64,000 nt of DNA from an uncultured bacterium (GCA_964512995.1 CAZELM010000002.1:18637-82636); one strand, 5' to 3'. Counted from the stretch's first letter, positions 26,435 through 48,006 are shown. Program-made: numbers and translations. The notes: generated by a model from the letters alone, not told the origin.

Positions 26435-26438
26435 GCTC

Positions 26439-28927: not shown

Positions 28928-29937
28928 CGGGTAAACCAATCCCATCCCCAACGATTTCCATCGTCATCCCATGCCGGAACTCACACCACACACTCAAACA
29001 GGTATTGGATGTTCTGTCACAATTGAGCCCAAACGCATTCGAGATCCTGTTGATCGATGATGGATCAGAGGTATCATTGGAAGACATCGCACGGGAGTAT
29101 GGCATTCGCTTTCATCGAATCTTTCCGGGACAGGGACCTGCACAGGCTCGAAATGTCGGCGGAGAATTATCACAGGGAGATATTATTCTCTTTTTGGATT
29201 CGGATGTAATACCGCCCGTAGATATTATTGCTCAATTACAATATCGATTTATCATGATTGCAGGGCTTGTAGCTGTTCAGGGTATCTATAATGAAAAAAC
29301 TCCTGCGACAGGTCTGTTCTCGAAATACCAGAATTATTATTATCATCTGGCTTTTTTTTCGAATAGCAGCGACTTTCCAGCAATCTGTGCAACATACTGT
29401 TTTGCGATTCGGAGAACGGTTTTTCTTGAAATGGGAGGCTTTGATACTCGAATCCCCAATCCCACGGTAGAGGATGAAATCATGGGTTATCGACTGATGA
29501 CTTTTCATCATCCGATCTTTCTGGACCGGCAGTTACAGGTCACTCATCTTGCCCAATACCGGATCGGAAGTTTCTTTCGTCGAAAGATGAGGATGAGCAT
29601 TGCTCAGATAAAAAGTCTGATGCGAGGGAATTATCCACCGATCCGCGATCATCAAAAAAATGAGAATCATAATCAGACGCATCATTCCGAACAAATGATT
29701 TTCAGCACAGGTCTCGCGCCACTTCTGCCGATTCTATGGATCATCTATTGGCCATCCGGCCTTCTGATTACTTTGATCTATTGTTATCTGAACGTAACAT
29801 TCTGGCGGTATTTATTGCATCGGGAACCAATCTGGCGATTGGTATCTCTGATTGCGATTACGTGGCTGGATCAGATAGCGATTTTCATGGGAATCTGCAT
29901 AGGAGCTTTGGATTTTTGGATGGGGCGGCGATATTAG
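28924..29937 (+). CDS. Glycosyltransferase family 2 with C-terminal TM helices.
   Basis: ISIVIPCRN, LLIDDGS and LDSDV are GT2 DxD-type motifs. The C-terminus is hydrophobic (LPILWIIYWPSGLLITLIYCYL). Confidence 0.8.
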   Translation: MTGKPIPSPTISIVIPCRNSHHTLKQVLDVLSQLSPNAFEILLIDDGSEVSLEDIAREYGIRFHRIFPGQGPAQARNVGGELSQGDIILFLDSDVIPPVDIIAQLQYRFIMIAGLVAVQGIYNEKTPATGLFSKYQNYYYHLAFFSNSSDFPAICATYCFAIRRTVFLEMGGFDTRIPNPTVEDEIMGYRLMTFHHPIFLDRQLQVTHLAQYRIGSFFRRKMRMSIAQIKSLMRGNYPPIRDHQKNENHNQTHHSEQMIFSTGLAPLLPILWIIYWPSGLLITLIYCYLNVTFWRYLLHREPIWRLVSLIAITWLDQIAIFMGICIGALDFWMGRRY

Positions 29938-33640: not shown

Positions 33641-35142
33641 ACTGTCACGACTCATTCCCCGGCAAAAGTGGGTTGATCCTTGAAGAACCCCTCATTTTTC
33701 ACCGAAGTTCGGCTGAGCGGGAAGGTTATTCCATACCTGAAGACGATATCCCGGCTGTGAATGACCGTCTCCTACCACCACCCGAATTCCTTCGGGATGA
33801 TATCTGTGGGATGCCAGAAGTGTCTGAACTGGATGTCGTTCGCCATTTCACCCGTTTATCGACCTGGAACTATTCCGTTGATCATGGCATGTATCCACTG
33901 GGTTCCTGCACCATGAAATACAACCCGAAAGTAAACGAAACGGTCGCATCGTTACCCGGATTTTTGAATCTGCACCCATTGACACCTGAAAAATATATCC
34001 AATCCGCATTGCGACTGATACACGAACTCGAGGCGTATTTAAAAGAGATCAGCGGATTAGATGCCGTTTCGATCCAACCATCCGCAGGTGCTCAGGGTGA
34101 GCTGACCGGCATGTTGATGATCCGCGCATACCACGTATCCCGCGGCGAATCAAATCGCCAGATCGTTTTGATTCCAGATTCTGCTCATGGCACAAACCCC
34201 GCAAGTTGTATCATCGCCGGATTGACAGCTCAGGTCATTCCCAGTGGTCCGGATGGACGATTGGATCCGGCCAGTATTCAACCGTATCTGAATGACAAAT
34301 TGGCAGCCATCATGATGACGAATCCCAATACATTGGGATTATTCGAATCTAACGCTGCCGAAATCGCCAGATGCATTCATGAAGCAGGTGGTCTGGTTTA
34401 TATGGACGGAGCCAATTTGAATGCGCTGATGGGAATCATTCAGCCGGGTGCATTGGGTGTCGATGTCCTGCATATCAACCTTCATAAAACATTTTCCACT
34501 CCACACGGAGGGGGTGGTCCAGGTGCTGGACCCGTTGCAGTATCCAAAAAGCTGGAACCATTTCTTCCGGTACCGCGCATCAAAAAAGTTGACGGACAGT
34601 TTACTCTCTGCGATGATTACCCGAATTCGATCGGCAAAGTTCATGGTTTTCTTGGCAATTTTGGCGTAATGGTCCGAGCGTATGCATACATTCGTTCGAT
34701 GGGACCCGATGGCCTCCGTGCCGTCACTGAAGCAGCGACGATCAATGCCAATTATATCAAAGAAAGCCTAAAGCCCTATTTTCATCTTGAATACGATGAT
34801 TTATGCAAGCATGAATGCGTTCTCAGCGATAAAAACTTACATGAACATGGGATTACCACCTTGGATGTTGCCAAGCGGCTGATGGATTACGGATTCCATC
34901 CTCCTACGATCTACTTTCCGTTGATCGTGAAGGGAGCGATCATGATTGAGCCAACAGAATCAGAGTCCAAACGAAACATCGATCGATTCATCGACGCCAT
35001 GATCGCAATTTATGAAGAAAGTAAAACAAACCCTGAACTCGTAAAAGCAGCTCCCACCAAAACAAAAATACGCCGATTGGATGAAACGGCTGCTGCCCGG
35101 AAGCCGATTCTCCGATGGGAACCTTTTATGGAAATGCCCTGA
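33637..35142 (+). CDS. gcvPB: Glycine dehydrogenase (decarboxylating) subunit 2 (P-protein C-terminal half, PLP-binding).
   Basis: Contains GSCTMKYNP and the PLP-Lys region LHINLHKTFSTPHGGGGPG. Confidence 0.95.
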   Translation: MNCHDSFPGKSGLILEEPLIFHRSSAEREGYSIPEDDIPAVNDRLLPPPEFLRDDICGMPEVSELDVVRHFTRLSTWNYSVDHGMYPLGSCTMKYNPKVNETVASLPGFLNLHPLTPEKYIQSALRLIHELEAYLKEISGLDAVSIQPSAGAQGELTGMLMIRAYHVSRGESNRQIVLIPDSAHGTNPASCIIAGLTAQVIPSGPDGRLDPASIQPYLNDKLAAIMMTNPNTLGLFESNAAEIARCIHEAGGLVYMDGANLNALMGIIQPGALGVDVLHINLHKTFSTPHGGGGPGAGPVAVSKKLEPFLPVPRIKKVDGQFTLCDDYPNSIGKVHGFLGNFGVMVRAYAYIRSMGPDGLRAVTEAATINANYIKESLKPYFHLEYDDLCKHECVLSDKNLHEHGITTLDVAKRLMDYGFHPPTIYFPLIVKGAIMIEPTESESKRNIDRFIDAMIAIYEESKTNPELVKAAPTKTKIRRLDETAAARKPILRWEPFMEMP

Positions 35143-35159
35143 TTTGCTGATGACTGATC

Positions 35160-35192
35160 AATCCCTCCTCAACCGTGCTACGAGGAGGGATT
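35160..35192. terminator. Strong 11-bp stem hairpin (aatccctcctc-N11-gaggagggatt) between the convergent gcvPB and GT2 genes; no adjacent U-tract.
   Basis: Read directly; the arms are exact reverse complements. A T9 run lies 50 nt downstream at 35243-35256. It may be a factor-dependent terminator or simply an RNA structure. Confidence 0.35.
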
Positions 35193-35258
35193 ACCGGATT
35201 ATCGACTTGAATCCCGACACGACACATCACATGAGCGGGATGGCTTATTTCTTTTTTT

Positions 35259-36299
35259 TCAGATGAACCGTTCTTTATCTCTATCCCACCATAATGTAAA
35301 CATAAGACGGTAAATCCGGCTTTCCTCATACCAATCCGCAGCCGGATCGATACGATATCGTTGGCTGACGCAAGCGAGCGCCCAACGACACATAGCCATC
35401 AGGCTGATAAGTTGACAGACAATAAAGGTTTTCCATGCAGGATGGTGTTTTCGAAAAAAATAGACCATGCTTCGATATCGTTCAAAAAATGGCCGAAGGG
35501 GTGCTTTACGGGACGCCGAAGCGACTTCATGCCGGGATATCACCTGATCCAGATACACCCATTTCCAACCTGCTTTTCGTGCTCTCAATGCAAAATCGAT
35601 CTCTTCATAGTAGAGGAAGAAACCATCATCCATCCCTCCAATCTGGTCAAATGCACATCGTTTGATCATGACGCATGCGCCAGTTGTATAATCGACATAC
35701 TGGACGGGAGATGGTTCAGCATACTGCTGAAAAAAGCGTCCCAATATTCGCAGATGACCCTGGATAACGACTTCATCCGCTGGCAACAGTCGTTTTAAGC
35801 AGAAAAGATGAGCAATAATGAGATGCAGGTCAGGAAAAGTACCTCGGGATGGTTGGAGCCTTCCATCCGGATATATCAGACGAGGTGCTGCTGCAACAGC
35901 ATCATGTTGTGTCTCCAGAAAAAACTTCAGTGCACTTATCCCATCCAGCGTAATCCGTGCATCCGGGTTTAGAAGCAGTATCAATGGAGCTGTTGTGGCA
36001 CTAACTCCCTGATTGACCGCGAAAGCAAAACCTTTATTTTCTGGATTCGCGATGAGTCGTATCCGGTTTTCAAACGAACGAGCCACATTCAGCGTTGAAT
36101 CTTCCGAATGATTATCAACAACAATAATTTCCAGATTCACCCATGGATTAGTATTAAGCAGTTGCGACACGCACTCCTGAAGTTCAAACTCAGCATTATA
36201 TGTTACCAGGATTACCGCGATATCCGCTTGTTGAGATCTTGAGTCTATCATCATTGCCTCTTCGTAGTAACACAATTCCTTTCCAAATCTTCTTTCCAA
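35259..36299 (-). CDS. Glycosyltransferase family 2 (polyprenyl-phosphate sugar synthase-like or rhamnosyltransferase-like).
   Basis: VILVTYNAEF, VVDNHSED and NPENKGFAFAVNQG are classic GT2-A motifs. It lies directly downstream of the GT-C gene on the same strand. Confidence 0.8.
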   Translation of the reverse strand: MERRFGKELCYYEEAMMIDSRSQQADIAVILVTYNAEFELQECVSQLLNTNPWVNLEIIVVDNHSEDSTLNVARSFENRIRLIANPENKGFAFAVNQGVSATTAPLILLLNPDARITLDGISALKFFLETQHDAVAAAPRLIYPDGRLQPSRGTFPDLHLIIAHLFCLKRLLPADEVVIQGHLRILGRFFQQYAEPSPVQYVDYTTGACVMIKRCAFDQIGGMDDGFFLYYEEIDFALRARKAGWKWVYLDQVISRHEVASASRKAPLRPFFERYRSMVYFFRKHHPAWKTFIVCQLISLMAMCRWALACVSQRYRIDPAADWYEESRIYRLMFTLWWDRDKERFI

Positions 36300-36336
36300 T
36301 GCATGATCACACCAATAAGAGATGGTAAGGTGTCAC

Positions 36337-38070
36337 TCATCTGGCATCAATTTCATCCAGTTCTTTCACCTGCCACAGAATCACAGGAGAATTTTTTATC
36401 TGGAATGTCGTTATATATGTCGCGTTTTCCATCACTTCCGGAAACCATTGTTTCTGGAGAACCAGTTCATTGCCCAATGGGTACTCCCATGAAAGGATAT
36501 GTGTTATATTGTGTTTCTCGAATGGATTCTCATCATTGACAAAGCCTTTCCAGAGCGGAATCGCCCGATGGGTGGTCTCCAAGCACAATTCCGGAGCCCA
36601 TTGGCCGGCGATAACGGATCCCGAAGGCAGCAGTGTATTGAGTTCCCGGGAAGCCTGAACGATGTGATATGTCCGATGGAACTGCCAATTCAGCAATCTC
36701 CCGACATCCATTCCCACACAGATGATAGTGATAATGATCCATATGCGATAGGATATCCTGCCCGGCAGAATGGACACAGCCGCCAGAAAAATACCGATGA
36801 CGATCACCATGATCGCTCCATCTGTTGAAAATCCTGGCAAGGATGCATATCCCAGCCATTTTCCTCCAGTAAAAAGTTGATCTAACAGCGGAATTGCATT
36901 GGCAATGACTGGAATCATCATCCAACTGCTCGAAATGAAATTCCTGCCTGATGATCCAACCTTCATCGGAAACTTTTTATCGAAGGAACGACTGCCTCGG
37001 AGAAGATCTGTCATACCGATCCAGCGCCATGATCCGATCAAGATGAGGGGGATGATCAATGGAATATAGTATCTCACTGGCCGATAGGTCAGAGGCGACA
37101 GGAATAAAAAACCGGATACAAACCATACATAACTGAACAGAACGATTCCTGGGATTTCCTTTGATCTTCGGGCAAACGATCGCATGAATGGAATTTCGAT
37201 CAGCAACAGCCATCCGGTGCAGAGTATTAACGGCATCCGATTGAAATAGATAAAAAAAGGCTGAAGTATGACGTTCTTGATCATCGAGATCAGTGAATGC
37301 TCATGTTGTGAAAGATAAAACTGCTGATATCGGATCAAAATTTCTCGTTCCGGCAGGTAGATCACAACAAACCATGGGATAATGACCGACAGGAATCCCA
37401 AAACCTGTGTGATGTTCTTTTTATGTGAAAATGAGTTGAAACCATCAAGCCAGTAACTTGCTGCGAGCAGCGTGAACAATAGGTAAATCTGTGTTCCCTT
37501 GGTGATATAAGTCAAGGCGGCAAAAAAACCCGCAGCGCCATACCAGAAATACACCCTCGCAGAAGCAGCACGACACCAGCAGTAAGCAGTGACAATACTC
37601 CCGACTACAGCGGCTGTTTCCAATAAAGCAATCCGTTGATAGGCAACGAATACAGGACATACTGCACTGAATAAGAAGGCCAGCCATCCCCATTGATAGA
37701 CTCTTACCAACAAAATAAAAATTATTACTGTGGCGAAAGAGAAACTCAATGCAGAAATGCGGACAGCAAGTAATCCCGGCTTTATGGCCTTAAATAAAAA
37801 GATGGTCCACGGATGGATCAAGGGAGAGACAAACCGATCGTGCCAGTCATCGGTGCCATAGTCCCCCCATATGACCCAATTACGGGCATCATGCACCCAA
37901 AATCCTTCGTCTGCATAATAGCCACCGCTCCAAGATAGATCCGGAGGTGGGTCGGAGAGTGGATTGATCGATCGGAAAAAAATGGCCAATAAAAAAGATA
38001 TTATCCAGATCCATTTGATAATCTGCGTATTCATCCGGCCATTACTTCTCCCTGCTTCAAACCAATACAA
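36337..38070 (-). CDS. GT-C fold membrane glycosyltransferase, ArnT/PMT (GT39/GT83-like) family.
   Basis: More than 10 TM segments. Contains GGYYADEGFW (DE motif), RISALSFSFATVII and YQRIALLETAAV, which match the PMT_2/ArnT family. Confidence 0.7.
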   Translation of the reverse strand: MYWFEAGRSNGRMNTQIIKWIWIISFLLAIFFRSINPLSDPPPDLSWSGGYYADEGFWVHDARNWVIWGDYGTDDWHDRFVSPLIHPWTIFLFKAIKPGLLAVRISALSFSFATVIIFILLVRVYQWGWLAFLFSAVCPVFVAYQRIALLETAAVVGSIVTAYCWCRAASARVYFWYGAAGFFAALTYITKGTQIYLLFTLLAASYWLDGFNSFSHKKNITQVLGFLSVIIPWFVVIYLPEREILIRYQQFYLSQHEHSLISMIKNVILQPFFIYFNRMPLILCTGWLLLIEIPFMRSFARRSKEIPGIVLFSYVWFVSGFLFLSPLTYRPVRYYIPLIIPLILIGSWRWIGMTDLLRGSRSFDKKFPMKVGSSGRNFISSSWMMIPVIANAIPLLDQLFTGGKWLGYASLPGFSTDGAIMVIVIGIFLAAVSILPGRISYRIWIIITIICVGMDVGRLLNWQFHRTYHIVQASRELNTLLPSGSVIAGQWAPELCLETTHRAIPLWKGFVNDENPFEKHNITHILSWEYPLGNELVLQKQWFPEVMENATYITTFQIKNSPVILWQVKELDEIDAR

Positions 38071-38357
38071 TGATCGGCTGTCCTAAATTCAGATCAAAGC
38101 CGATACTCACTCGATGATTCTATTCATCGATCGTAAGCATTATCGGATGAACCTATTTTCTTTACAAGGAAAACACGTTTTAAACTGCCATCATGGATAA
38201 ATTTCCAGCCATCGCTGCGATTTTCTCCACCACAGGGGCGACTATCTTGACTATTTGTCAGTGAAACGCTATTGATGTTTTAACAGATGGAGGCCGTCAC
38301 AGGTTTTATCAGTGTCTGTTCTACACGATGAGCAGGTTTTAAGAAAGGGGATGAAGG

Positions 38358-39644
38358 ATGTTGAGATCAATCAGGATTCCAATTGCCGGAGTGTTATTCA
38401 TCATCGCTCTTGTGCTGGCAGGATGTGAAAATAGTGAAAATTTTCGCAAAGGCTTACAGCTAAAAAATACTTCTGACTACAAAAACGCCATAACCCAGTT
38501 TCAGGATTTTCTCAAAATCTACCCTGACTCGGCTTATAAAACACGAGTCCAAGAAGAGATTGCCGACTGCTACTTCCTGTGGGCTCAAAATGAAAAGCAG
38601 CTAAAACACTGGGATAAGGGCGTGGAGTTACTGCAGATCATTCTCGATACCTATCCGGATACGAGTGTTGCAGAAAAAATCGAAGAAGTTTTGCCGGAAT
38701 TCCTGATGGAATGGTCAAGCCAACTTGCTTACGAAGGAAAATTCATTGATTCGCTGGGGGTTTTGAAACGACTGATTCTTAATTTTCCAGCTTCAAGTCC
38801 TGCTCAAGAAGGCCGTGAACTCCGCAAAAAAATAGGCATTATCGCATTCAACTCAGACAATAACATCTATGTGATGAATGCGGATGGTTCAAAACTAAGA
38901 AAAATCGCCACATCAGCCATAGCCCCAACCATCTCCCCTGATGGCACAAAAATCGCCTATATAAAAATACAAAAACCGGGTGATAAAACAGGATTTTTAT
39001 ACTTGTCAAACATTGATGGTCGTAAAGCCAAACAGCTTCTGGATAATCCCGTCGCAGCCGACCCGAATTTTTCTCCAGACGGGACGAACATTCTGATTAC
39101 AAAAGGAGATGCGTTTCAAACCGTCGATTTATCAGGCCGAACGATCAATGCGTATTTCGGGATCAAAGATTTCGACACGATTGGCAGTTTCAGTCCGACA
39201 GGAAAGCAGGTTGTCGCATTCCTCAAGAATCCCAAAGATGCCATATCCCGGCTTTGTGTGACAGAAAATTTCGAGGAATATATCGAACTTCTCAACACCA
39301 AAGATGCTGTAATCCGGGATGCAGCATGGTCTCAGGATAACCTTCGAATTGTGTATGTAACACCGAATGGCTTGCACACTGTTTCACCCGAAGGCGAAAA
39401 CCAGATGGACTTCATTCTGTCCAATACCATAGATAACATGGATATCCAGTCTGTTGATATTGCTCCAACAGGATCGAACATCATTTTAATTGGAAAGAAA
39501 CAAGCTGATCCGAGTTACAAATTATATTATGTTACGCTCAACAAGGATGTATTCCCGCTGGAATATCAGGCTTCAAAAGACGGAGAATTGCCACTTCCGG
39601 ATGCCGGCAGAGTATCCTGGGGATATGGATACCTCCGATACTGA
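38358..39644 (+). CDS. Lipoprotein with TPR-like N-terminal region and TolB-like beta-propeller repeats.
   Basis: The signal peptide and lipobox are FIIALVLAGCEN. Repeated SPDGTKIAY / FSPDGTNILI / FSPTGKQVVAF propeller blades are present. Confidence 0.55.
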   Translation: MLRSIRIPIAGVLFIIALVLAGCENSENFRKGLQLKNTSDYKNAITQFQDFLKIYPDSAYKTRVQEEIADCYFLWAQNEKQLKHWDKGVELLQIILDTYPDTSVAEKIEEVLPEFLMEWSSQLAYEGKFIDSLGVLKRLILNFPASSPAQEGRELRKKIGIIAFNSDNNIYVMNADGSKLRKIATSAIAPTISPDGTKIAYIKIQKPGDKTGFLYLSNIDGRKAKQLLDNPVAADPNFSPDGTNILITKGDAFQTVDLSGRTINAYFGIKDFDTIGSFSPTGKQVVAFLKNPKDAISRLCVTENFEEYIELLNTKDAVIRDAAWSQDNLRIVYVTPNGLHTVSPEGENQMDFILSNTIDNMDIQSVDIAPTGSNIILIGKKQADPSYKLYYVTLNKDVFPLEYQASKDGELPLPDAGRVSWGYGYLRY

Positions 39645-39806
39645 TCTCTTAATGAATTCCGGGATTATCTGAGCGGAAACCGAATACTCGATCGATACAT
39701 AAAGCAACGAAAACATCGCATTTCGGCACTGTGGGAGTGCGATGTTGTTTTATATTGAGATTATGAACCAGTCCCGGAGAGGAAACTCCCACTTCCAATC
39801 ACGGTT

Positions 39807-40682
39807 CTATCTGGCACTATAGAGAATTCCTGTAACCGAAATCACCCAGAGAATAATATCGATGACCATTGCTTTATCCTGTATCAGTACCCGATCCGGG
39901 CTTCCACCCAAGTTTTGAAGATGTACCAGATACAAATATCTGAAGATGGCAAACAATACAAATGGAACGGTGAAGATGAGATTTTGAGTATTAAACTTTT
40001 CGACGACTTTGTCGGAGATCGTATACAGAGCATATGCCATGAGCGCACTGGAGGTAACGACAGAAATCATCTGATCAACCAATCCAAGTGAATACTCCTG
40101 AAGAACTGCCCGGTGATTGGCTGCCTGATTCTCTATCAATTTTAATTCATGTCGACGTTTGCAGAGTGCAAGAAACAATGCGAGAAGGAATGTACAGATG
40201 AGTAGCCATTCGGATATCCTGACATCAATCACAACTGCACCAGCCACAGCCCGTAATACAAAACCGATTGCGATGATCATAACATCTACAATCACAACAT
40301 GTTTCAGATATAATGAATAAGCGATATTCATCGTTAAATATGTCAACGCAATGATGCCAAATGCATTGGAAACCATGAAACTCGCTACCAAAGAAAGGGT
40401 TCCGATCAAAATACCAGCCATCTTCGCATGCGTTTTCGGTAGCCGACCCGATGGGATAGGTCGCAATTTCTTCTCGGGATGAACCAGATCCCGTTCATAA
40501 TCTAATATATCGTTGAGAATATATACCGTTCCAGAAACCATACAAAACAAAAAAAACGCGACTGTTGTTTTTAACAGTGGCAGCACCTGGAAGATCTGAA
40601 GCGAAAATAAAATGCCTGCAAAAACAACAAAATTTTTCGTCCATTGCCGGGGTCGCATCGTTTCAAGAAGCGCTTTATACAT
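39807..40682 (-). CDS. UbiA-family prenyltransferase; decaprenyl-phosphate 5-phosphoribosyltransferase (DPPR synthase)-like.
   Basis: Contains MRPRQWTKNFVVFAG, YILNDILDYERDLVHPEKKLRPIPSG, LKH, LRAVAGA and CKRRHEL. It tracks M. tuberculosis Rv3806c-type motifs closely. Confidence 0.8.
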   Translation of the reverse strand: MYKALLETMRPRQWTKNFVVFAGILFSLQIFQVLPLLKTTVAFFLFCMVSGTVYILNDILDYERDLVHPEKKLRPIPSGRLPKTHAKMAGILIGTLSLVASFMVSNAFGIIALTYLTMNIAYSLYLKHVVIVDVMIIAIGFVLRAVAGAVVIDVRISEWLLICTFLLALFLALCKRRHELKLIENQAANHRAVLQEYSLGLVDQMISVVTSSALMAYALYTISDKVVEKFNTQNLIFTVPFVLFAIFRYLYLVHLQNLGGSPDRVLIQDKAMVIDIILWVISVTGILYSAR

Positions 40683-40835
40683 ATCATTACCTCATGGCCG
40701 ATTAAGATCCTTCATTTCACACAACCACCCGGGAGTGATCATTCGGATTACAGATTATCGAAAATTTTCTTTTGTCACAATCATGTTACCGTGAAGAATT
40801 GTAACTCCAGAAACTTTACGGCATAATCTTCGTTT

Positions 40836-43046
40836 ATGGAGGTGCATGAAATGGCTACGCGACCTGGTTCACGATACATCGATCAAATCACACACGTGAT
40901 GCTCATTTGCATTGCGATCGGATTTCACATTCCATGTGGGAGATGCGGTGATCCCAACTCACCGGATCTGTCAATTTCAGTTGTTCCAAATCGAATGTAT
41001 TTTTCGGGATCGACTCCATTTCAACTGGATGTGTTCATCACCAATACAAGTTCAGCGCACCATCATGCGGATCTGTATGTTGCCTTAGAAATACAAGGAG
41101 AATATTATTTATACCCCAGTTTCAGAAATGGGTTGGATTATAAAAAAATCAGTATTCCGCCCGGAACAACAATCCATCAGGAGATTATCCCTGGAATTGA
41201 TCTTCCTTCAGAACTTCCGTTACTGCGGATACCGGTCTATGCTGTCTGCACAAAACGCGATACATTCACACCGGTCTCAAATCTGGATACAATCTCATTA
41301 TTCTTTCAAACCTTGTGGCCAGAACTTCCATTCCCGGACATTAGAAATACATTTTATTTTATGCCAGGAGGACGAACGATCGACTGCCGTCAGAATCAGG
41401 CTCGATTTGATGAGTTTTCCGAAGCGATATACTCCCATTTCCCACCTCAGGGATTATATATGCGCCTGGGAGTCAGTGTCACTGATCCGGTCAAATACCC
41501 GGAGCATGTATCCTGTGCCACATTTGCTGCCGAAAAAGCAGACCAAGCAAATCTTGCTTTGGGACTTCACATTGGCGTCACATCTCATCATCTGTCTGGA
41601 TTCATGGAAGAATTACGTCTTACTGATCGACGGTTCAATCAATGGGAATCGGATGGTACGATCTATAATAACAGCCCCAGTGACCTGACCTGTATCACCC
41701 TTTCTCGAATGGCAACCGGACTAATGGATGCCCGGAAGCTTCTGAGCGGAATCTATTCTGAGGGATTTCACAATGCGTCTCTGGAATATCCCGGTTGTTT
41801 GATTTATGCGAGTGGTCCAATTGAAGTAGAACAACGTCGAGCACTCAATGAGACGCCTCATTATGCAGATTATAGTCCATTTGCAATCGCTGAGTTTCGG
41901 GACTGGATTTGCCACAAAGGGATCTATGATGATGTACATGGTGAATTTGCCGGCCAGGGAGTATTCCTCAGTTTGATTGATAACAATGATTTTTCTGCGG
42001 ATCTATCTCCAGATGTTCATCAAGGTGACGGACCGAGCTTCAATGAATATTTTGGCACCCATTTCCGCTCCTGGACTTTGAAATATTGGGATCTGGAACG
42101 ATTTCCTGATCCAATGCCGCTTATTGCTTCTCCCCTGCCATTGCCGGATGAACCCGGATATTTTTCCGATGGCTTTGATGCGCCTCGTCTGACCGATGGC
42201 AATCTCATTGGAGGGAACGCACGATTTCACGAAATCTGGGATGGTTATTTAAATGAATATGGATATGGATTTCGACAGGCAATGGTTATGAATTATGTGA
42301 GTGACAGTGCTCGATGGTTAACAGAAAATGGATTGCCGGTAGAACGAAATTTTACGCATCAAATCCCTGCTGATTTCATCGGAAACTGGATCCGTCTGAA
42401 AGGTTCCGCTTCTCCGTTCTGGACCGCAATCAATCCTTACAGCAACATGGGCTTCACAACGTATTGGGAAACTGCTCTGAATGAACCATTATTTAAGATC
42501 GTCTCTGATCTTTCAGGCCGATGGGGTATTTTTGAGTATCATCCGGATCCATTTATGACGCATGATAAACTGTTTTTTGCACAAGCACTGGACCTCGTAT
42601 ATCGATATCGGGTTCAAATCATCTGTCCCCTGCATTTATTTTCAACAGCAGAGGGAACATATCCGCTCATCGGTACGCCGTTTGAAGAAGCTTTAAACGA
42701 TTTTTTCACTGCATCTTGGCCAGGGACGGACCATCGACGATTTGATCAGCCCTATTTCAATCAGGCATGGGTCGACTATCTACCTCCACCAGTCCAAGAC
42801 TTGCAGATGACCAGCACGACACTGACCTGGTCTGAAACCATCTGGCCGCAACGGCGGGATCTCACATGGGTGAATTGGGGTGAATTTGACCACTTTGAAA
42901 TTTTCCAGGGTATGATCGCTGACTTTGTTCCCAATCCCGGGAATCGAATCGGAAAAACCACACAATACTCTTTCCCGATCATGCAACCCGGTCATTACAA
43001 AGTTCTGGCAGTATCAAAATCTGGATTGACGTCTCCAATTGATTGA
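40836..43046 (+). CDS. Large hypothetical protein (736 aa), possibly exported.
   Basis: Long ORF. An internal MLICIAIGFHIPCGRCG could be a signal or lipobox. I recognise no catalytic motifs. Confidence 0.45.
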   Translation: MEVHEMATRPGSRYIDQITHVMLICIAIGFHIPCGRCGDPNSPDLSISVVPNRMYFSGSTPFQLDVFITNTSSAHHHADLYVALEIQGEYYLYPSFRNGLDYKKISIPPGTTIHQEIIPGIDLPSELPLLRIPVYAVCTKRDTFTPVSNLDTISLFFQTLWPELPFPDIRNTFYFMPGGRTIDCRQNQARFDEFSEAIYSHFPPQGLYMRLGVSVTDPVKYPEHVSCATFAAEKADQANLALGLHIGVTSHHLSGFMEELRLTDRRFNQWESDGTIYNNSPSDLTCITLSRMATGLMDARKLLSGIYSEGFHNASLEYPGCLIYASGPIEVEQRRALNETPHYADYSPFAIAEFRDWICHKGIYDDVHGEFAGQGVFLSLIDNNDFSADLSPDVHQGDGPSFNEYFGTHFRSWTLKYWDLERFPDPMPLIASPLPLPDEPGYFSDGFDAPRLTDGNLIGGNARFHEIWDGYLNEYGYGFRQAMVMNYVSDSARWLTENGLPVERNFTHQIPADFIGNWIRLKGSASPFWTAINPYSNMGFTTYWETALNEPLFKIVSDLSGRWGIFEYHPDPFMTHDKLFFAQALDLVYRYRVQIICPLHLFSTAEGTYPLIGTPFEEALNDFFTASWPGTDHRRFDQPYFNQAWVDYLPPPVQDLQMTSTTLTWSETIWPQRRDLTWVNWGEFDHFEIFQGMIADFVPNPGNRIGKTTQYSFPIMQPGHYKVLAVSKSGLTSPID

Positions 43047-43057: not shown

Positions 43058-43789
43058 TCAATGATGAGAGAGTTGTGTATTGAAAGCCGGGATATCCGCC
43101 AGTGGCTTATTGATACGTCCTTGAGATAGCAGCATCAGGGAATAATCTCCGGATGGCTCTTTGATTCTAAGCTCCTCCAGGAGATAATCGCTGTTAAATT
43201 TCACTGTAATGCAATCGATTACCTGTGATAGTGACTCTGATTTGGGTGTCAACGTGACAACATGCATCGGGTTGTTACCAGAGGTTTCTGATAGAATAAA
43301 ATGTGATGCTATTTTGGTTTGCTGATTATCAAGAATCCATAATAAAAAATTGACCACAGGTTGTATATCCGGTTGTCTGGCTAAATCCAATCTATCGATA
43401 TGATTGGTCTCATGATAGGTGACCGTCAATTCCGCATTTGTGTGCCAGGTTGTTTCCAGTGCAGGTTGTTCCTCTTTTCGGATTAATTCACCTGGTTTCT
43501 TATAGAATAACCATCCCTGACTCCGAAATGGTTCCGCCAAAAACCGAACATGCTTTTCTTCCTGATAAAACGCGGAGAACGTCTGGATCTCGCTCATGTG
43601 GCTCCAAAAATCTGTCATCTTATCTTCTGTTGATACGATTGACGTCCGGGAAATAATCATCTGTGGATCATTGGATGACGAATTAGTCTGACTCAATACC
43701 GGTATCAATCCACCGGCATAGAATAATACGAGAATGATCAGAAATCGATTCATCAAAACTCCGCTTGAGGGGACCGAGTAAGTAATCAC
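43058..43789 (-). CDS. Hypothetical periplasmic protein, LolA-like fold suspected.
   Basis: The signal peptide is MNRFLIILVLFYAGGLIPVLSQ. The 4-nt overlap with the upstream beta-barrel gene suggests co-transcription. The functional call is weak. Confidence 0.35.
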   Translation of the reverse strand: MITYSVPSSGVLMNRFLIILVLFYAGGLIPVLSQTNSSSNDPQMIISRTSIVSTEDKMTDFWSHMSEIQTFSAFYQEEKHVRFLAEPFRSQGWLFYKKPGELIRKEEQPALETTWHTNAELTVTYHETNHIDRLDLARQPDIQPVVNFLLWILDNQQTKIASHFILSETSGNNPMHVVTLTPKSESLSQVIDCITVKFNSDYLLEELRIKEPSGDYSLMLLSQGRINKPLADIPAFNTQLSHH

Positions 43790-44436
43790 CAGCGTTCTTT
43801 GCTTTTAATCATCCGTAGATGGAAACGTGCACCGACACGCCAATCGTTCCATGTATAGGATTCGTCATTTCCCTTAAAAGCCACTCGATGACGGTGAAGT
43901 GACGTGCTTAACTCAATTCCCTTGAAGATCTGATATCCAATACCTGCTCCATAATTGATTCCCAGATCTGCGGATTCTGTCGATGTTCCATCCAACCACC
44001 ATGCTTTGTCGGTTTCCCAGATATAAAGCCCCAAACCACCGGATGCAGATACATTCCATTTTTTCCAGAATGGGTAAACAATCTGCCCCCCCACTGACAC
44101 GCTCATGATGGAAAAATCGGCATTCTGTGATGGTCTGGATAAATTGAAATATTCGACACCACCCAGAACACCCAGATACTGATTATACATATAACTGAAC
44201 AAGATACCCGTCCCGTATTCCCGGCCATAGCGCTGGCTTAATTCATCCTTTGGATCGATCACATTCAATCCAACCTGGACGCTCAGTTGATCGGCTCTGA
44301 CCATTTCGGGTTTAAAAAAAACAATTAATGACAGTACACCCACAACTAACATTTCCACTCCATGTAATCGCTTCATCAACATGATACTCCTTGCGCCTGA
44401 TCTGTAAAAACCGCTTCTCCGTTTTTCTATTGTCAA
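43786..44436 (-). CDS. Small outer-membrane beta-barrel protein (OmpW/OmpA-like).
   Basis: The signal peptide is MKRLHGVEMLVVGVLSLIVFFKPEMVRA. It has alternating amphipathic beta-strand patterns and an aromatic C-terminal residue. The start is probably the internal MKRLHG. Confidence 0.45.
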   Translation of the reverse strand: MTIEKRRSGFYRSGARSIMLMKRLHGVEMLVVGVLSLIVFFKPEMVRADQLSVQVGLNVIDPKDELSQRYGREYGTGILFSYMYNQYLGVLGGVEYFNLSRPSQNADFSIMSVSVGGQIVYPFWKKWNVSASGGLGLYIWETDKAWWLDGTSTESADLGINYGAGIGYQIFKGIELSTSLHRHRVAFKGNDESYTWNDWRVGARFHLRMIKSKERW

Positions 44437-45063: not shown

Positions 45064-46068
45064 TCAAATGAACCACTTCGAGCGGATCCAATCAATCGTA
45101 TCTTTAAGAGTGACCTGGATATCCCGGGGTTCCCAGGACAATTCCTCCCGAATCTTTTTCGTTGATAAAAATTGATGTTTCCCTGCGAATTCGCGGATCA
45201 AATCCATGGTTATCTGACGTTGGGTTCCCGTGAATTTTGAAGATATCCAATCCAGGCAACACAACGGAACCAAAAGCGGCACGGGCAAAGTCCCCACTGG
45301 CATCCGAATCGTTCTGTCTAATTCATTCAGTTTCCTCAAAAGAGTCATCATATCGAAGTATTCTGTCGAAACGATATAGCGGCCATTTGCTGTCGGAGAT
45401 TCATAAGCCAGCCTATGAGCCTCTGCCACATCGCGGACATCCACGTAACTGAATGCTAATGGCAATGCAAATGGGATTCGACCCGTCATCGCTTTATAGA
45501 TAATCTCCGTTGATGGCGTATGACGGTAAAAACCAGGACCAATGACTCCAGAAGGACAGATCGTAATCAGGTTTATATCTTTTGAATAGACATACTCCCA
45601 TGCTTTTTTCTCGGCATCACGTTTTGCGATGAAGTAGGGACTCCTCGCCGATGTATTCCAGTCACTTTCTGTCAAAGGCTCCTGGATGCTTGAATCTGTG
45701 CCTACCGCAGCCACGCTGGATGTAAATATCACCTTTCTGATCTTCCGTTCGTAACAGGCTTTCAACACATTCAATCCACCCATAATGCTTGGTTCGATAA
45801 TATCTCGAACCGGATCAGGAGACCAAAGAGCATAGACTGCTGCGAGATGAAACACACCATCCACGCCTTCCATCGCCTTCATGATACTGTCCTGGTCCAT
45901 AATATCCACATACACTCGCTCGATATCCAATCCGTCCAGTGATTTCATTTTCTGCGGATCACCCGGATCCCGAACTCCTGCTCGAACCCGATAATTCTTA
46001 TTGAGTAATAGTCGGACCAGATTATTACCGATATGGCCGTTTGCTCCTGTTACCAACACAAAACCCAT
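45064..46068 (-). CDS. NAD-dependent epimerase/dehydratase (extended SDR).
   Basis: VLVTGANGHIGNNLVRLLL is the Rossmann motif and YFIAK is the YxxxK catalytic motif. The 334-aa length fits an extended SDR. Confidence 0.8.
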   Translation of the reverse strand: MGFVLVTGANGHIGNNLVRLLLNKNYRVRAGVRDPGDPQKMKSLDGLDIERVYVDIMDQDSIMKAMEGVDGVFHLAAVYALWSPDPVRDIIEPSIMGGLNVLKACYERKIRKVIFTSSVAAVGTDSSIQEPLTESDWNTSARSPYFIAKRDAEKKAWEYVYSKDINLITICPSGVIGPGFYRHTPSTEIIYKAMTGRIPFALPLAFSYVDVRDVAEAHRLAYESPTANGRYIVSTEYFDMMTLLRKLNELDRTIRMPVGTLPVPLLVPLCCLDWISSKFTGTQRQITMDLIREFAGKHQFLSTKKIREELSWEPRDIQVTLKDTIDWIRSKWFI

Positions 46069-46119: not shown

Positions 46120-48006
46120 CTACTTGAACAGAAATCGAGAAATGAACTCCCGCTGCTGTGGCTCATTTACAAATTCAGTTATTACCTGCCAATCAATAGA
46201 TGTGGCATTAAAATCGATATTGCCGATATAATGCATGAACACCGTGAAATCTCCAAGATATGCCGCACGTACAGCGCCAATCACACTGGCAGACTCGACA
46301 AAGCCCCGTGGGAACTCACCCTCATCCCACTCATCGATTTTTCCCTCAAGCGTATTTTGCCAATCGCTGTTCCATGTTGTATTGGATGGAGCGAATACCA
46401 GCGCCCAAAATAAAACGACTACCGTCCAGAGGGAAAAAGAAGCGACAATTATATTTCTCCCCCATCGAAAACGCTCCCAGCATTTCAAGCATACCGATGA
46501 AATGAGCAAAATTGAAAAGATAATGAGTGCTCCCTGAAAGTAATCCCATGTATGCGCTTTGGAAACCAAAGTGAAGCGATGCGACAAAATTTTTGCGACT
46601 CCCTGGGAAAAGGCCTCGAAAGGAGTCTCCCAGCGACCTGCATGAGCGAAAAAAATCTGCTCTCCAGACTTGAACGGATCCGGCTTTCCAAAAAACAACA
46701 GGGATAAATCATAATTGTAATAACGATGTGCGCTTAATGTAACGATCGCCCAGACTGACGACAGAAATACAAACAGGACACGGTGTCGTGTTTTCATGTT
46801 CGTCAGGACACAAGCCAATCCCAAACCTGCCATGGGTGTCAAAGAGGACAGTCTGCGTGGACCATAAGAACTGCCACCCCACCAATCGAACGGGCATGCT
46901 GAAATGTAAATAGCAATTGGGATTGATGCGGTCAATCCGATCAGCAACCGTTTTTTCCCGACGGGCATCGGTTTCCATAGAGAAAAATAAATCCCTATCA
47001 ACCCGATGGCGAACACGGGTGCCCACGGCAAAAGCCCGTTGTAACTGCTGAACAGGAAGGATCGGATATGGGGTTGAGACCAGTGCATAAAATGCTTTTC
47101 ATGTGTTCGGAGGAACCATTCGCCATATTGGATGTAAAAAAAAGAATACTGAATTGTAATAACAGAAAAAAAACTCAAAACAACTGCAATAAAACTATAT
47201 GTTCTGGAACGATCCCATTTTTTTTCGAACAATAGATGAAAAAGGATGGGAACAGCCAAGCAGCCCCAAATGAGGTTATCCTGCCACCGACTGATTCCCA
47301 TCATACCGGCTGTCAATCCCAATTGTATCCCTTCCATGATCCTCGGGTGTTCCAGCCACCTCACACATGAGTGGATCATCAAAACACTCCAGAATGCACT
47401 GAGAAGGTGCGAATTCCCATACGATTGAAGTCCATAAAAAAATAAAGGACCCGAGATAATGCTCAGATAGGCGGAGAGGTATCCGATATCCTTAGAATAA
47501 CCTACCGTTTCAATCAAACGAGCTATCGCTTGAACTGTTATGATAAACGCAAGCATCGAGCCGATCATGATTGCGATATACAGATTATTGCGATATTCCA
47601 CCGGATCGGACAACAAAAGAACCGGCCATGTATACCACCCATGCGTCACTGCGAAACCAGCACCAAAGGCATTTTTCAAAGCTCCAGAAGGAAATGTAAT
47701 GGTCAATGCTCTGAATTTTTCGGAAAAAACCAAATTTGATGCAATGATGTTATTTTGGAGAAACAGATCTCCATCGCATATCGGAGATATTAATTGAGAC
47801 AAAAAAAACGTCTCATCCCATCCATAAAAAGAAGCCAGCCAAAAGAATTTCCACAAAAAGAGGAATCCGATCACAGGCCATCGGATTGCTTTTATACCCT
47901 TTGCCAGCCACGGATAACACCCTGGCATTCTGAAAATATTCATGATGGATCTTGTTTCCTTCCGGCATCCAGAATATCTCTGAATGCACTTCCCATCATC
48001 GGACAT
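46120..48006 (-). CDS. Large polytopic membrane protein (628 aa), possible GT-C-type glycosyltransferase or YfhO-like.
   Basis: More than 12 hydrophobic segments, with large loops containing Trp/Asp/Glu-rich regions. I see no soluble catalytic motif, so the function is inferred from topology only. Confidence 0.5.
   Translation of the reverse strand: MSDDGKCIQRYSGCRKETRSIMNIFRMPGCYPWLAKGIKAIRWPVIGFLFLWKFFWLASFYGWDETFFLSQLISPICDGDLFLQNNIIASNLVFSEKFRALTITFPSGALKNAFGAGFAVTHGWYTWPVLLLSDPVEYRNNLYIAIMIGSMLAFIITVQAIARLIETVGYSKDIGYLSAYLSIISGPLFFYGLQSYGNSHLLSAFWSVLMIHSCVRWLEHPRIMEGIQLGLTAGMMGISRWQDNLIWGCLAVPILFHLLFEKKWDRSRTYSFIAVVLSFFSVITIQYSFFYIQYGEWFLRTHEKHFMHWSQPHIRSFLFSSYNGLLPWAPVFAIGLIGIYFSLWKPMPVGKKRLLIGLTASIPIAIYISACPFDWWGGSSYGPRRLSSLTPMAGLGLACVLTNMKTRHRVLFVFLSSVWAIVTLSAHRYYNYDLSLLFFGKPDPFKSGEQIFFAHAGRWETPFEAFSQGVAKILSHRFTLVSKAHTWDYFQGALIIFSILLISSVCLKCWERFRWGRNIIVASFSLWTVVVLFWALVFAPSNTTWNSDWQNTLEGKIDEWDEGEFPRGFVESASVIGAVRAAYLGDFTVFMHYIGNIDFNATSIDWQVITEFVNEPQQREFISRFLFK

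What the first reader, a model, noticed from the sequence alone, without database searches (positions are those of the whole stretch)
35259..40682. Polyprenyl-phosphate sugar glycosylation module: GT2 synthase-like, ArnT/PMT-like GT-C and DPPR-synthase-like UbiA
A GT-C fold transferase (DE motif, PMT_2-like) sits directly upstream of a GT2 on the same strand. This is the ArnC/ArnT or Ppm1/Pmt logic, in which a GT2 loads a polyprenyl phosphate and the GT-C transfers from it. Two genes away is a UbiA enzyme with very close similarity to decaprenyl-phosphate 5-phosphoribosyltransferase, which makes the lipid-linked pentose donor for mycobacterial arabinan. In this genomic context, next to a huge Thr/Pro-rich surface protein, the acceptor could be that protein (O-glycosylation) or an envelope lipid or glycan.
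Basis: partly seen in the sequence, partly recalled or inferred. Interest (0 to 1): 0.7.

Follow-up and report, generated by a model that had tools for sequence, protein, structure and literature searches.

The report
Lipid-linked pentose sugar-transfer gene pair
An uncultured bacterium (phylum CSSED10-310) keeps an enzyme that should make a lipid-linked ribose-type sugar next to a membrane enzyme that should attach such sugars to the cell envelope; this is a fresh example of a pathway described in 2024, not a new kind of system, and its target molecule is unknown.

Summary
The genes are real. The reading is only partly right.

- **UbiA homolog (39807-40682, -).** It is a PRPP-dependent polyprenyl-phosphate 5-phosphoribosyltransferase. 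It passes the NCBIfam DPPR-transferase equivalog cut-off, aligns full-length to M. tuberculosis Rv3806c, and keeps 9 of 11 PRPP/lipid-binding residues.
- **GT-C (36337-38070, -).** It has a PMT_2-type GT-C fold with an invariant loop-1 DE motif.
- **GT2 (35259-36299, -).** It is a WbbL/GlfT-like Leloir enzyme, not a GtrB/ArnC/DPM1-type polyprenyl-phosphate loader, so the proposed ArnC/ArnT logic fails.
- **Giant Thr/Pro-rich protein.** It lies 30 kb away, not next door.
- **Synteny.** OMP barrel, UbiA, TPR/beta-propeller lipoprotein, GT-C and GT2 stay together in every CSSED10-310 locus with enough flank. GT-C homologs at 30-33% identity in other lineages have none of these neighbours.
- **Missing parts.** No DprE1/DprE2, phosphatase or small flippase is encoded in the window or in ten related loci.

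Best reading: a minimal member of the pentofuranose glycosylation systems of Kelly et al. 2024, in which UbiA makes the lipid-linked donor and the GT-C transfers it in the periplasm. Sugar identity and acceptor are unresolved. Verdict: new member of a known kind, of modest interest.

The parts
39807..40682 (-). UbiA-superfamily polyprenyl-phosphate 5-phosphoribosyltransferase (PPPRS/DPPRS type), 291 aa. It appears to be a single-gene transcription unit.
   Evidence: PF01040, E 1e-22. NCBIfam NF008977 at 291.6 bits, cut-off 234. PDB 8j8j (Rv3806c) at E 6e-39 over residues 5-284. Nine of 11 PRPP/decaprenyl-phosphate-binding residues are identical and 2 are conservative. It is 62-74% identical across CSSED10-310 genomes.
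40488..40514 (-). Codons for the catalytic NDxxDxxxD motif of the UbiA enzyme (NDILDYERD, residues 57-65).
   Evidence: Motif located. N57 and D61 correspond to the Mg2+/PRPP ligands Asn73 and Asp77 of Rv3806c (PMC10994848; mapping).
36337..38070 (-). GT-C fold glycosyltransferase of the PMT/PMT_2 superfamily, 577 aa. It has a C-terminal periplasmic alpha/beta domain and is the first gene of a GT-C plus GT2 unit.
37897..37953 (-). Codons for the invariant first periplasmic loop motif DPPxDLSWSGGYxADEGFW. It contains D54 and E55, the predicted catalytic pair.
   Evidence: These columns are invariant in an alignment of 21 homologs at 30-46% identity. Position found. The motif lies just after TM1, helix 12-34.
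35259..36299 (-). GT2 (GT-A fold) Leloir glycosyltransferase of the WbbL/GlfT/COG1216 type with one C-terminal hydrophobic helix. The real start is probably the ATG at 36251 (330 aa).
   Evidence: PF00535, E 7.8e-23. The best NCBIfam matches are EpsD, rhamnosyltransferase and MftF. Homologs are named GlcNAc-PP-decaprenol L-rhamnosyltransferase, and the public gene call is 330 aa. Profile against PDB: K4CP over positions 9-268, E 3e-29. Model pLDDT 90.2. Foldseek top matches are ppGalNAc-Ts, WrtF, TarP, K4CP and GlfT2. Hydrophobic segment at 293-311.
38358..39644 (+). Conserved neighbour: a lipoprotein (lipobox LAGC) with N-terminal TPR repeats and a TolB-like PD40 beta-propeller. It is transcribed divergently from the GT-C. 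Its role in the module is unproven.
   Evidence: TPR_6, PD40 and YfiO hits. TolB-propeller, BamD and YbgF models match below their cut-offs. It is next to the GT-C in every CSSED10-310 locus with enough flank. It is 50-65% identical across genomes.
43786..44436 (-). Conserved neighbour: a small outer-membrane beta-barrel protein. Its role in the module is unproven.
   Evidence: OMP_b-brl, E 6.6e-10. It is found within about 2 kb of UbiA in most CSSED10-310 loci, including the two in which UbiA is inverted.
45064..46068 (-). Extended SDR (GalE/HpnA-like), the only nearby candidate for a pentose epimerase. The link is weak.
   Evidence: Epimerase family, E 4.2e-32. HpnA model at 203 bits, cut-off 368. 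GxxGxxG and YxxxK motifs are present. It is absent from the cluster flanks in all other CSSED10-310 loci.

Best explanation
This is a conserved envelope-glycosylation locus of the uncultured phylum CSSED10-310. It is built on the same principle as the pentofuranose glycosylation systems of Kelly et al. 2024 (PMC11127046), mycobacterial arabinan synthesis and Pseudomonas TfpW pilin arabinosylation.

1. On the cytoplasmic face, the UbiA-type enzyme transfers ribofuranose-5-phosphate from PRPP to a polyprenyl phosphate, probably undecaprenyl phosphate. This step is well supported by sequence.
2. The product is dephosphorylated and flipped by proteins that are not encoded in this locus. This step is inferred.
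3. On the periplasmic face, the PMT_2-type GT-C uses its loop-1 Asp-Glu pair to transfer the sugar from the lipid carrier to an envelope acceptor. The fold and motif are shown. Donor identity and coupling to UbiA are inferred from conserved neighbourhood and precedent.
4. The GT2 co-transcribed with the GT-C is a nucleotide-sugar (Leloir) enzyme. It more likely builds or extends the acceptor glycan on a lipid carrier than loads a donor.

The default sugar is ribofuranose, because no epimerase travels with the locus. The acceptor is unknown.
For: **UbiA is a phosphoribosyltransferase**
- It passes the NCBIfam DPPR-transferase equivalog, 291.6 against 234.
- It aligns full-length to Rv3806c, E 6e-39.
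- R22, K28, Y70, N73, D77, K87, R90, Y138 and K143 of Rv3806c are identical. Q135 becomes N and Y157 becomes F. The structure paper states that the phosphoribose-binding residues among these (K28, Y70, Q135, Y157) are not conserved in ordinary UbiA prenyltransferases; N73, D77 and Y138 are shared with the UbiA superfamily.
- C. youngae ORF15, at 31% identity to Rv3806c, has the same activity, shown biochemically.

**The GT-C is a polyprenyl-phosphate-sugar transferase**
- The model is confident and has a GT-C fold.
- The loop-1 DE motif is invariant.

**The two genes are coupled**
- OMP barrel, UbiA, TPR/PD40 lipoprotein, GT-C and GT2 stay together in all CSSED10-310 species representatives and metagenome loci with enough flank.
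- This holds despite a variable left flank, insertions between GT-C and GT2, and an inversion of UbiA in two loci.

**UbiA homologs sit beside other GT-C families elsewhere**
- GT87 in Aminicenantes.
- PMT_2 in Elusimicrobiota.
- GT39-annotated genes in Chondrinema and Legionella adelaidensis.
- A 463-aa hypothetical protein plus HAD phosphatase and GtrA in Lactococcus.
Against: - UbiA and the GT-C are not in one operon; an opposite-strand gene lies between them.
- The whole block, including the unrelated glycine-cleavage genes, is syntenic in the phylum. The adjacency could therefore be inherited rather than selected.
- GT-C homologs at 30-33% identity (Acidobacteriota, unnamed lineages) and a Fermentibacteria homolog at 31% have no UbiA, GT2 or TPR/PD40 gene in the flanking DNA held for them, up to 10 kb a side.
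- No 5'-phosphatase (PAP2, HAD), small flippase (GtrA, SMR, EamA) or epimerase pair was found in the 64-kb window or in ten related loci.
- The fold comparison does not single out pentofuranosyltransferases. AftA, AftB, AftD and Emb score lower than ALG, PMT, STT3 and ArnT.
Confidence: 0.55

Rival explanations
1. UbiA and the GT-C are unrelated neighbours. The GT-C is a PMT/ArnT-like enzyme that uses a polyprenyl-P-hexose or aminoarabinose donor made by a GtrB/ArnC/Ppm1-type synthase encoded elsewhere. It would mannosylate proteins or modify lipid A or LPS. The UbiA product would feed other GT-C enzymes elsewhere in the genome.
For: - The family belongs to the PMT/PMT_2 superfamily.
- Sister-clade GT-Cs lack a neighbouring UbiA.
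- The two genes are in separate transcription units.
- One CSSED10-310 genome carries a separate 250-aa GT2 next to a TMEM260-type GT-C about 8-10 kb from UbiA, so other GT-C systems exist in the phylum.
Against: - UbiA stays within about 2 kb of the GT-C in every CSSED10-310 locus with enough flank, even after local rearrangement.
- PPPRS genes recurrently sit beside diverse GT-C genes in other phyla.
- No GtrB/ArnC-type GT2 is present in the window.
Confidence: 0.3
2. One reading: the GT2 loads a sugar onto polyprenyl phosphate and the GT-C transfers it, following ArnC/ArnT or Ppm1/Pmt logic.
For: - The GT-C and GT2 are adjacent and co-oriented, with a 37-85 nt gap.
- The GT2 has one C-terminal hydrophobic helix.
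- An archaeal membrane mannosyltransferase (6yv7) appears among the structural matches at rank 26.
Against: - The GT2 profile matches DPMS, ArnC and GtrB only over the generic N-terminal nucleotide-binding part, at 57, 42 and 31 bits. It matches K4CP over the full catalytic domain at 105 bits.
- NCBIfam ranks EpsD, rhamnosyltransferase and MftF first. The dolichyl-phosphate hexose transferase model scores 18.9 bits, and no ArnC model is listed.
- Homologs are annotated as WbbL-type enzymes.
- In two genomes, cohesin and dockerin genes on the opposite strand separate the GT2 from the GT-C.
Confidence: 0.1
3. The module O-glycosylates the giant Thr/Pro-rich secreted protein (1021-5271).
For: - The protein has a signal peptide and about 500 residues of TPTxTxTPT repeats, a typical O-glycosylation substrate.
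- The GT-C is PMT-like.
- TfpW provides a precedent for pentofuranosylation of a protein.
Against: - The gene is 30 kb away and was not seen within 10 kb of the cluster in the other loci.
- It sits beside its own GT4 cluster and an exosortase-family gene.
- No direct evidence bears on it.
Confidence: 0.07
4. The UbiA homolog is an aromatic prenyltransferase acting in quinone, heme or chlorophyll synthesis.
For: It belongs to Pfam PF01040, and some JGI pipelines name its homologs 4-hydroxybenzoate polyprenyltransferase.
Against: - The models for heme o synthase, chlorophyll synthase, GGGP-type and other prenyltransferases score 18-63 bits against 291.6 for the DPPR transferase model.
- The PRPP-binding K/R cluster and tyrosines are conserved.
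Confidence: 0.02

Closest known systems
Three-component extracytoplasmic pentofuranose glycosylation systems (Citrobacter youngae O1/O2 ORF15, ORF14 and ORF12; Kelly et al., PNAS 2024, PMC11127046)
   Same: A UbiA-type polyprenyl phosphoribose synthase lies next to a GT-C glycosyltransferase. The predicted sequence is cytoplasmic donor synthesis from PRPP followed by periplasmic transfer.
   Different: - The UbiA has no fused HAD phosphoribose-phosphatase domain.
- No small flippase and no ORF13-like epimerase travel with the locus.
- The GT-C is PMT_2-like with an alpha/beta C-terminal domain, not the CBM-bearing GT136 architecture. GT136 membership could not be tested because no GT136 sequence was available.
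- The locus is a conserved chromosomal block in a whole phylum, not a variable O-antigen cluster.
Mycobacterial DPA pathway and arabinofuranosyltransferases (Rv3806c, Rv3807c, DprE1/DprE2, Emb/Aft)
   Same: The UbiA enzyme is homologous to Rv3806c, and the PRPP- and lipid-binding residues are conserved. The GT-C fold is shared with Emb and Aft enzymes.
   Different: - Identity to Rv3806c is only 29%.
- No DprE1, DprE2 or PAP2 phosphatase is found in the window or in related loci.
- The organism is a predicted diderm.
Legionella adelaidensis DPPRS plus GT39-family gene pair (NZ_LR134420.1)
   Same: It has the same minimal arrangement: a PPPRS gene next to a PMT_2/GT39-annotated GT-C in a housekeeping region, with no phosphatase, flippase or epimerase nearby.
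   Different: The Legionella GT-C shows no significant profile similarity to this family (hhalign probability 1.6%). There the two genes are directly adjacent and co-oriented. Neither pair has been characterised.
Pseudomonas aeruginosa TfpW pilin D-arabinofuranosylation (PsPA7_6246-6249)
   Same: A PPPRS-derived lipid-linked pentofuranose is used by a GT-C in a Gram-negative periplasm. This is the precedent for a protein acceptor.
   Different: That system includes DprE1, DprE2 and a GtrA-like protein and sits by the pilin gene. None of these is present here.
ArnC/ArnT lipid A aminoarabinose modification
   Different: The GT2 is not of the ArnC type. No NCBIfam ArnT model matches the GT-C. No Arn pathway genes are in the window.

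Membership tests
Polyprenyl-phosphate 5-phosphoribosyltransferase (DPPRS/PPPRS, Rv3806c family) | UbiA-superfamily membrane fold | tested here: met
   PF01040, E 1e-22, over residues 20-257. Seven or more hydrophobic segments. Full-length alignment to 8j8j.
Polyprenyl-phosphate 5-phosphoribosyltransferase (DPPRS/PPPRS, Rv3806c family) | Curated family model passed | tested here: met
   NF008977 at 291.6 bits (cut-off 234) and NF008978 at 214.9 bits (cut-off 207).
Polyprenyl-phosphate 5-phosphoribosyltransferase (DPPRS/PPPRS, Rv3806c family) | Mg2+/PRPP ligands NDxxDxxxD, the K/R pyrophosphate cluster and the 5'-phosphate-binding residues | tested here: met
   Nine of 11 residues are identical: R10, K16, Y54, N57, D61, K71, R74, Y122 and K127. 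Two are conservative: N119 and F141.
Polyprenyl-phosphate 5-phosphoribosyltransferase (DPPRS/PPPRS, Rv3806c family) | PRPP-dependent transfer to polyprenyl phosphate | not testable with these tools
   This needs a membrane assay like that used for ORF15.
Three-component pentofuranose glycosylation system (Kelly et al. 2024) | PPPRS gene | tested here: met
Three-component pentofuranose glycosylation system (Kelly et al. 2024) | GT-C glycosyltransferase in the same locus | tested here: met
   A GT-C fold protein lies 1.7 kb from UbiA, and the pairing is conserved in the phylum. It was not compared with GT136 itself because no GT136 sequence was available.
Three-component pentofuranose glycosylation system (Kelly et al. 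2024) | Small flippase (MATE/SMR/GtrA-type) in the locus | tested here: not met
   The 64-kb window holds no small multi-TM ORF of this type. phmmer with GtrA and small EamA queries gave no hit against the window or ten related loci.
Three-component pentofuranose glycosylation system (Kelly et al. 2024) | 5'-phosphoribose phosphatase (fused HAD PRP domain or a separate PAP2/HAD protein) | tested here: not met
   The UbiA is 291 aa with no extra domain. PAP2 and HAD-IB queries gave no hit. No such Pfam domain is present in the window.
DPA (arabinofuranose) pathway | DprE1 (FAD oxidase) and DprE2 (classical SDR) homologs | tested here: not met
   DprE1-like queries from Chondrinema and Flammeovirgaceae gave no hit. 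The DprE2-like query gave only a generic 21.6-bit hit to the FabG-like SDR at 14288-15112. The rest of the genome could not be searched.
ArnC/ArnT or Ppm1/Pmt two-enzyme logic | GT2 of the polyprenyl-phosphate glycosyltransferase type (GtrB/ArnC/DPM1) | tested here: not met
   Only the N-terminal ~110 residues match, at 31-57 bits, against a full-domain match to K4CP at 105 bits. NCBIfam gives WbbL, EpsD and MftF-like top matches. Public annotations agree.
ArnC/ArnT or Ppm1/Pmt two-enzyme logic | GT-C with an acidic catalytic motif in the first extracytoplasmic loop | tested here: met
   D54 and E55 are invariant and lie after TM1.
GT39/PMT protein O-mannosyltransferases | Match to the PMT/PMT_2 models | tested here: met
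   PMT_2 at 32.7 bits, cut-off 26.1. Wider family members also hit PF02366.
GT39/PMT protein O-mannosyltransferases | Protein Ser/Thr acceptor and polyprenyl-P-mannose donor | not testable with these tools

The most novel reading that the evidence does not exclude
In CSSED10-310, and perhaps in the many other uncultured diderm phyla whose UbiA homologs are 53-59% identical to this one, the lipid-linked pentofuranose pathway is a core envelope-biogenesis function rather than a strain-variable surface decoration. A previously unrecognised PMT_2-like GT-C clade would pentofuranosylate a conserved envelope component. Candidates are lipid A or LPS core, or the co-conserved TolB-like TPR/beta-propeller lipoprotein. 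The system would work without a dedicated flippase, phosphatase or epimerase in the locus.
Probability: 0.15. Interest if true: 0.65.

Novelty: new member of a known kind. Interest (0 to 1): 0.3.

Why it matters
If the reading is right, lipid-linked pentofuranose donors, best known from mycobacterial arabinan and a major tuberculosis drug target pathway, are also used by a barely known, uncultured diderm phylum. The enzyme there is as conserved as central metabolism: UbiA is 62-74% identical across genomes, against 66-70% for GcvPB. That would extend the 2024 three-component concept from variable O-antigen side chains to a conserved envelope function. It would also add another GT-C clade to the enzymes that may use such donors. 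In practice it gives two clonable genes for a direct biochemical test. It does not open a new question by itself.

Tried and rejected
- **Sequence search of the GT-C against PDB:** no hit. Fold search was needed.
- **Profile comparison of the GT-C family with GT39-annotated GT-Cs next to DPPRS genes:** hhalign probabilities of 1.6% (Legionella) and 46.5% (Chondrinema), so no usable link.
- **BLASTP against the Elusimicrobiota PMT_2 neighbour:** nothing.
- **Promoter and terminator scan of 35000-41000:** counts no higher than in shuffles, so no operon evidence.
- **Is the 628-aa multi-TM ORF (46120-48006) a second GT-C?** No Pfam hit even at E=10, and no hhalign link. Left open.
- **The 736-aa ORF (40836-43046):** no Pfam hit at E=10. 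It is present in only three of the related loci, so I did not treat it as part of the module.
- **Window SDR (45064-46068) against the epimerase next to UbiA in Elusimicrobiota:** only generic 30% N-terminal similarity. Not evidence for a shared role.
- **Phage collection:** one unannotated 6.6-kb record with a 37%-identical UbiA. Not followed up.
- **Whole-genome presence of DprE1/E2, phosphatase, flippase or GtrB-type GT2 in CSSED10-310:** could not be tested, because only about 20-kb loci can be fetched.

Full report
**What is in the sequence**

The region holds four genes of interest:
- a 346-aa GT2 at 35259-36299 (-);
- a 577-aa membrane protein at 36337-38070 (-), immediately upstream on the same strand;
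- a 428-aa lipoprotein at 38358-39644 (+), transcribed divergently;
- a 291-aa UbiA-family protein at 39807-40682 (-).

Pfam confirms Glycos_transf_2 (E 7.8e-23), PMT_2 (32.7 bits, cut-off 26.1) and UbiA (E 1e-22).

- UbiA is one gene away from the GT-C, not two.
- 'Very close similarity' to the mycobacterial enzyme is 29% identity.
- The Thr/Pro-rich giant protein at 1021-5271 is real (T 20%, P 16%) but lies 30 kb away.

**Source organism**

The closest relatives of these genes come from metagenome-assembled genomes of candidate division CSSED10-310. This is an uncultured phylum, predicted Gram-negative, from anoxic sulfidic and soda-lake sediments.

**The UbiA homolog**

- It scores 291.6 bits against the NCBIfam equivalog for decaprenyl-phosphate phosphoribosyltransferase (cut-off 234). 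It scores 18-63 bits against the models for heme o synthase, chlorophyll synthase, GGGP synthase and other prenyltransferases.
- It aligns end to end with the solved M. tuberculosis enzyme Rv3806c (8j8j, E 6e-39).
- I mapped the residues that the structure paper lists as binding PRPP, Mg2+ and decaprenyl phosphate (PMC10994848). R22, K28, Y70, N73, D77, K87, R90, Y138 and K143 are all identical. Q135 becomes Asn. Y157 becomes Phe, a change the paper also reports in some mycobacteria.
- The paper states that the phosphoribose-binding residues (K28, Y70, Q135, Y157) are not conserved in ordinary UbiA prenyltransferases. N73, D77 and Y138 are shared with the superfamily.
- The Citrobacter enzyme ORF15 has the same activity at a similar distance from Rv3806c, 31% identity.

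I therefore take PRPP-dependent polyprenyl-phosphate phosphoribosyltransferase activity as well supported.

The family is very large. More than 8000 proteins match. Homologs at 53-59% identity occur in Thermodesulfovibrionia, Elusimicrobiota, Aminicenantes, KSB3 and Deltaproteobacteria.

**The GT-C**

- The AlphaFold2 model is confident, with pLDDT 86.5 and pTM 0.89.
- Foldseek finds STT3, ArnT (TM 0.52-0.55), ALG9/12, PglB, Emb and Pmt4.

So this is a GT-C enzyme that should use a polyprenyl-phosphate-linked donor on the periplasmic side. The fold does not say which donor or which acceptor.

An exhaustive profile search shows that the family is not tiny. There are 579 cluster representatives at E<=1e-30 and 7901 at E<=1e-3. 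Ten sampled members all fall in PMT/PMT_2.

**The GT2**

- NCBIfam ranks EpsD, rhamnosyltransferase and MftF models first. The dolichyl-phosphate hexose transferase model reaches 18.9 bits, and no ArnC model is listed.
- Public sources annotate its homologs as GlcNAc-PP-decaprenol L-rhamnosyltransferase, the WbbL type.
- A profile of 21 homologs matches the chondroitin polymerase K4CP GT-A domain over positions 9-268 (E 3e-29). It matches DPMS, ArnC and GtrB only over the generic N-terminal ~110 residues, at 57, 42 and 31 bits.
- The predicted structure (pLDDT 90.2) is closest to ppGalNAc-transferases, WrtF, TarP, K4CP and GlfT2.
- The protein has one C-terminal hydrophobic helix, which fits a membrane-associated Leloir enzyme.

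It is more likely to build or extend a glycan than to charge a polyprenyl phosphate.

**Neighbourhood conservation**

The order OMP barrel, UbiA, TPR/PD40 lipoprotein, GT-C, GT2, gcvPB/PA/H/T recurs wherever the contig is long enough. This holds in the CSSED10-310 species representatives and in further metagenome loci, where GT-C identity to the window is 36-46%.

The left flank varies. Insertions occur between GT-C and GT2, including a cohesin and dockerin pair. In two loci UbiA is inverted and has swapped places with the OMP gene, yet it stays adjacent.

Across ten of these loci, UbiA (62-74% identity) and the lipoprotein (50-65%) are about as conserved as GcvPB (66-70%), while the GT-C is at 36-44%.

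By contrast, GT-C homologs at 30-33% identity from Acidobacteriota, Fermentibacteria and unnamed lineages have no UbiA, GT2 or TPR/PD40 gene in the flanking DNA held for them, up to 10 kb a side. Several of them share a different conserved ORF pattern around the GT-C.

The adjacency therefore arose once, at the base of the phylum. Its persistence is suggestive, but it cannot be separated cleanly from simple inheritance, because unrelated glycine-cleavage genes are part of the same syntenic block.

**Accessory functions**

I took real examples of the accessory proteins from annotated DPPRS loci:
- DprE1-like FAD oxidoreductase and DprE2-like SDR from Chondrinema and Flammeovirgaceae;
- PAP2 phosphatase and a small EamA protein from Marivivens;
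- HAD-IB phosphatase and GtrA from Lactococcus;
- DUF362, GFO/MocA and further small EamA/TPT-type membrane proteins from metagenomic loci.

I searched all six-frame ORFs of the window and of ten CSSED10-310 loci with them.
- The only hits were generic SDR similarities: 21.6 bits to the FabG-like gene at 14288-15112, 44 bits to the extended SDR at 45064-46068, two to a generic SDR ORF in L013 and one to an epimerase in L004.
- No small multi-TM ORF of the flippase type exists in the window.
- The extended SDR has the GxxGxxG and YxxxK motifs, as does the xylofuranose-forming ORF13 of Citrobacter. It is absent from the cluster flanks in every other genome.

The locus is thus a minimal pair plus a GT2. 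Ribofuranose is the default sugar, by absence of an epimerase.

**Comparison with known systems**

The governing precedent is Kelly et al. 2024 (PMC11127046). In that system a UbiA-type polyprenyl phosphoribose synthase, a small flippase and a GT-C add pentofuranose side chains in the periplasm. SDR or DprE1/E2 epimerases diversify the sugar. The authors note that such systems are widespread, including in organisms with unknown glycans.

Other annotated and metagenomic contexts show the same theme with different GT-C families:

| Organism or lineage | Genes around the UbiA/DPPRS gene |
|---|---|
| Aminicenantes | UbiA, DUF362, GT87 |
| Elusimicrobiota | UbiA, epimerase, unknown, PMT_2 |
| Chondrinema | GT39, DPPRS, FAD oxidoreductase, SDR, GT39 |
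| Lactococcus | hypothetical protein, DPPRS, HAD, GtrA |
| Legionella adelaidensis | DPPRS and GT39 alone, in a housekeeping region |
| Unnamed metagenome | small EamA/SMR-like gene directly upstream of UbiA |

The Legionella pair is the closest architectural match to this locus. TfpW of Pseudomonas shows that a protein can be the acceptor.

**Verdict**

- The best-supported mechanism is that UbiA makes the lipid-linked pentofuranose donor and the PMT_2-type GT-C transfers it to an unknown envelope acceptor. I put this at about 0.55.
- The main rival, at about 0.3, is that the two genes are merely neighbours and the GT-C uses another donor.
- The GT2-as-loader idea is unlikely (about 0.1). The link to the giant Thr/Pro protein is unsupported.
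- This is a new member of a known kind, in an uncultured phylum. Interest is modest at 0.3. It would rise if the system proved to be a core envelope function with a conserved acceptor.

Noticed in passing
window 1021-5271 (-) and 17725-18345 (-): The 1416-aa Thr/Pro-rich protein ends in IPASSPSG, then a hydrophobic helix, then RR. This resembles a VPXXXP-type exosortase/archaeosortase sorting signal. An exosortase-family gene lies 12 kb away (signature TIGR04178 at 46 bits, cut-off 23; about 63 bits to XrtX, XrtH and archaeosortase B), with a four-gene GT4 cluster between them. This protein-sorting and glycosylation locus is a better candidate partner for the giant protein than the UbiA/GT-C module.
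   Followed up: partly
window 24003-29937 (+): Five co-oriented genes encode a B12-binding radical SAM protein, a radical SAM protein, a second B12-binding radical SAM protein, a LpxL/PIM-acyltransferase-like protein and an MftF/EpsD-like GT2. The GT2 and acyltransferase, and in one locus a B12 radical SAM gene, recur beside the glycine-cleavage genes in other CSSED10-310 genomes. There are weak hits to lipid-biosynthesis radical SAM models. This may be a lipid or glycolipid modification cluster.
   Followed up: no
window 46120-48006 (-) with 45064-46068 (-): A 628-aa multi-TM protein carries the sequence WDETFF near its N-terminus, after an N-terminal hydrophobic stretch, and lies directly upstream of an extended SDR. 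It has no Pfam hit even at E=10 and no profile link to the GT-C family. It could be an unrecognised GT-C-like enzyme paired with an epimerase. It was seen only in this organism.
   Followed up: partly
L002 11710-13573 and L004 11702-13583: In two CSSED10-310 genomes a cohesin-like and dockerin-like gene pair is inserted on the opposite strand between the GT-C and the GT2.
   Followed up: no
L027 6949-9972, L028 8001-9956: In two other lineages, one of them Aminicenantes, the UbiA homolog is followed directly by a DUF362 protein. In one of them a GFO/IDH/MocA oxidoreductase overlaps its start. These are possible alternative redox partners for modifying the lipid-linked pentose. Neither occurs in the window.
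   Followed up: partly
window 57395-62358 (-): Two adjacent genes encode PPDK_N (PEP-utilising enzyme, ATP-binding domain) proteins. The larger, 1074 aa, is fused to a nucleotidyltransferase domain.
   Followed up: no
L006 9382-11987; L008 1534-3764; L019, L021, L023, L024, L026: The sister-clade GT-C genes (30-33% identity) sit in different contexts. In some, a 150-190-aa ORF of unknown function lies directly upstream and an amidohydrolase downstream, after a 697-aa ORF. In one, a TPR-like TAtT protein lies directly downstream.
   Followed up: partly
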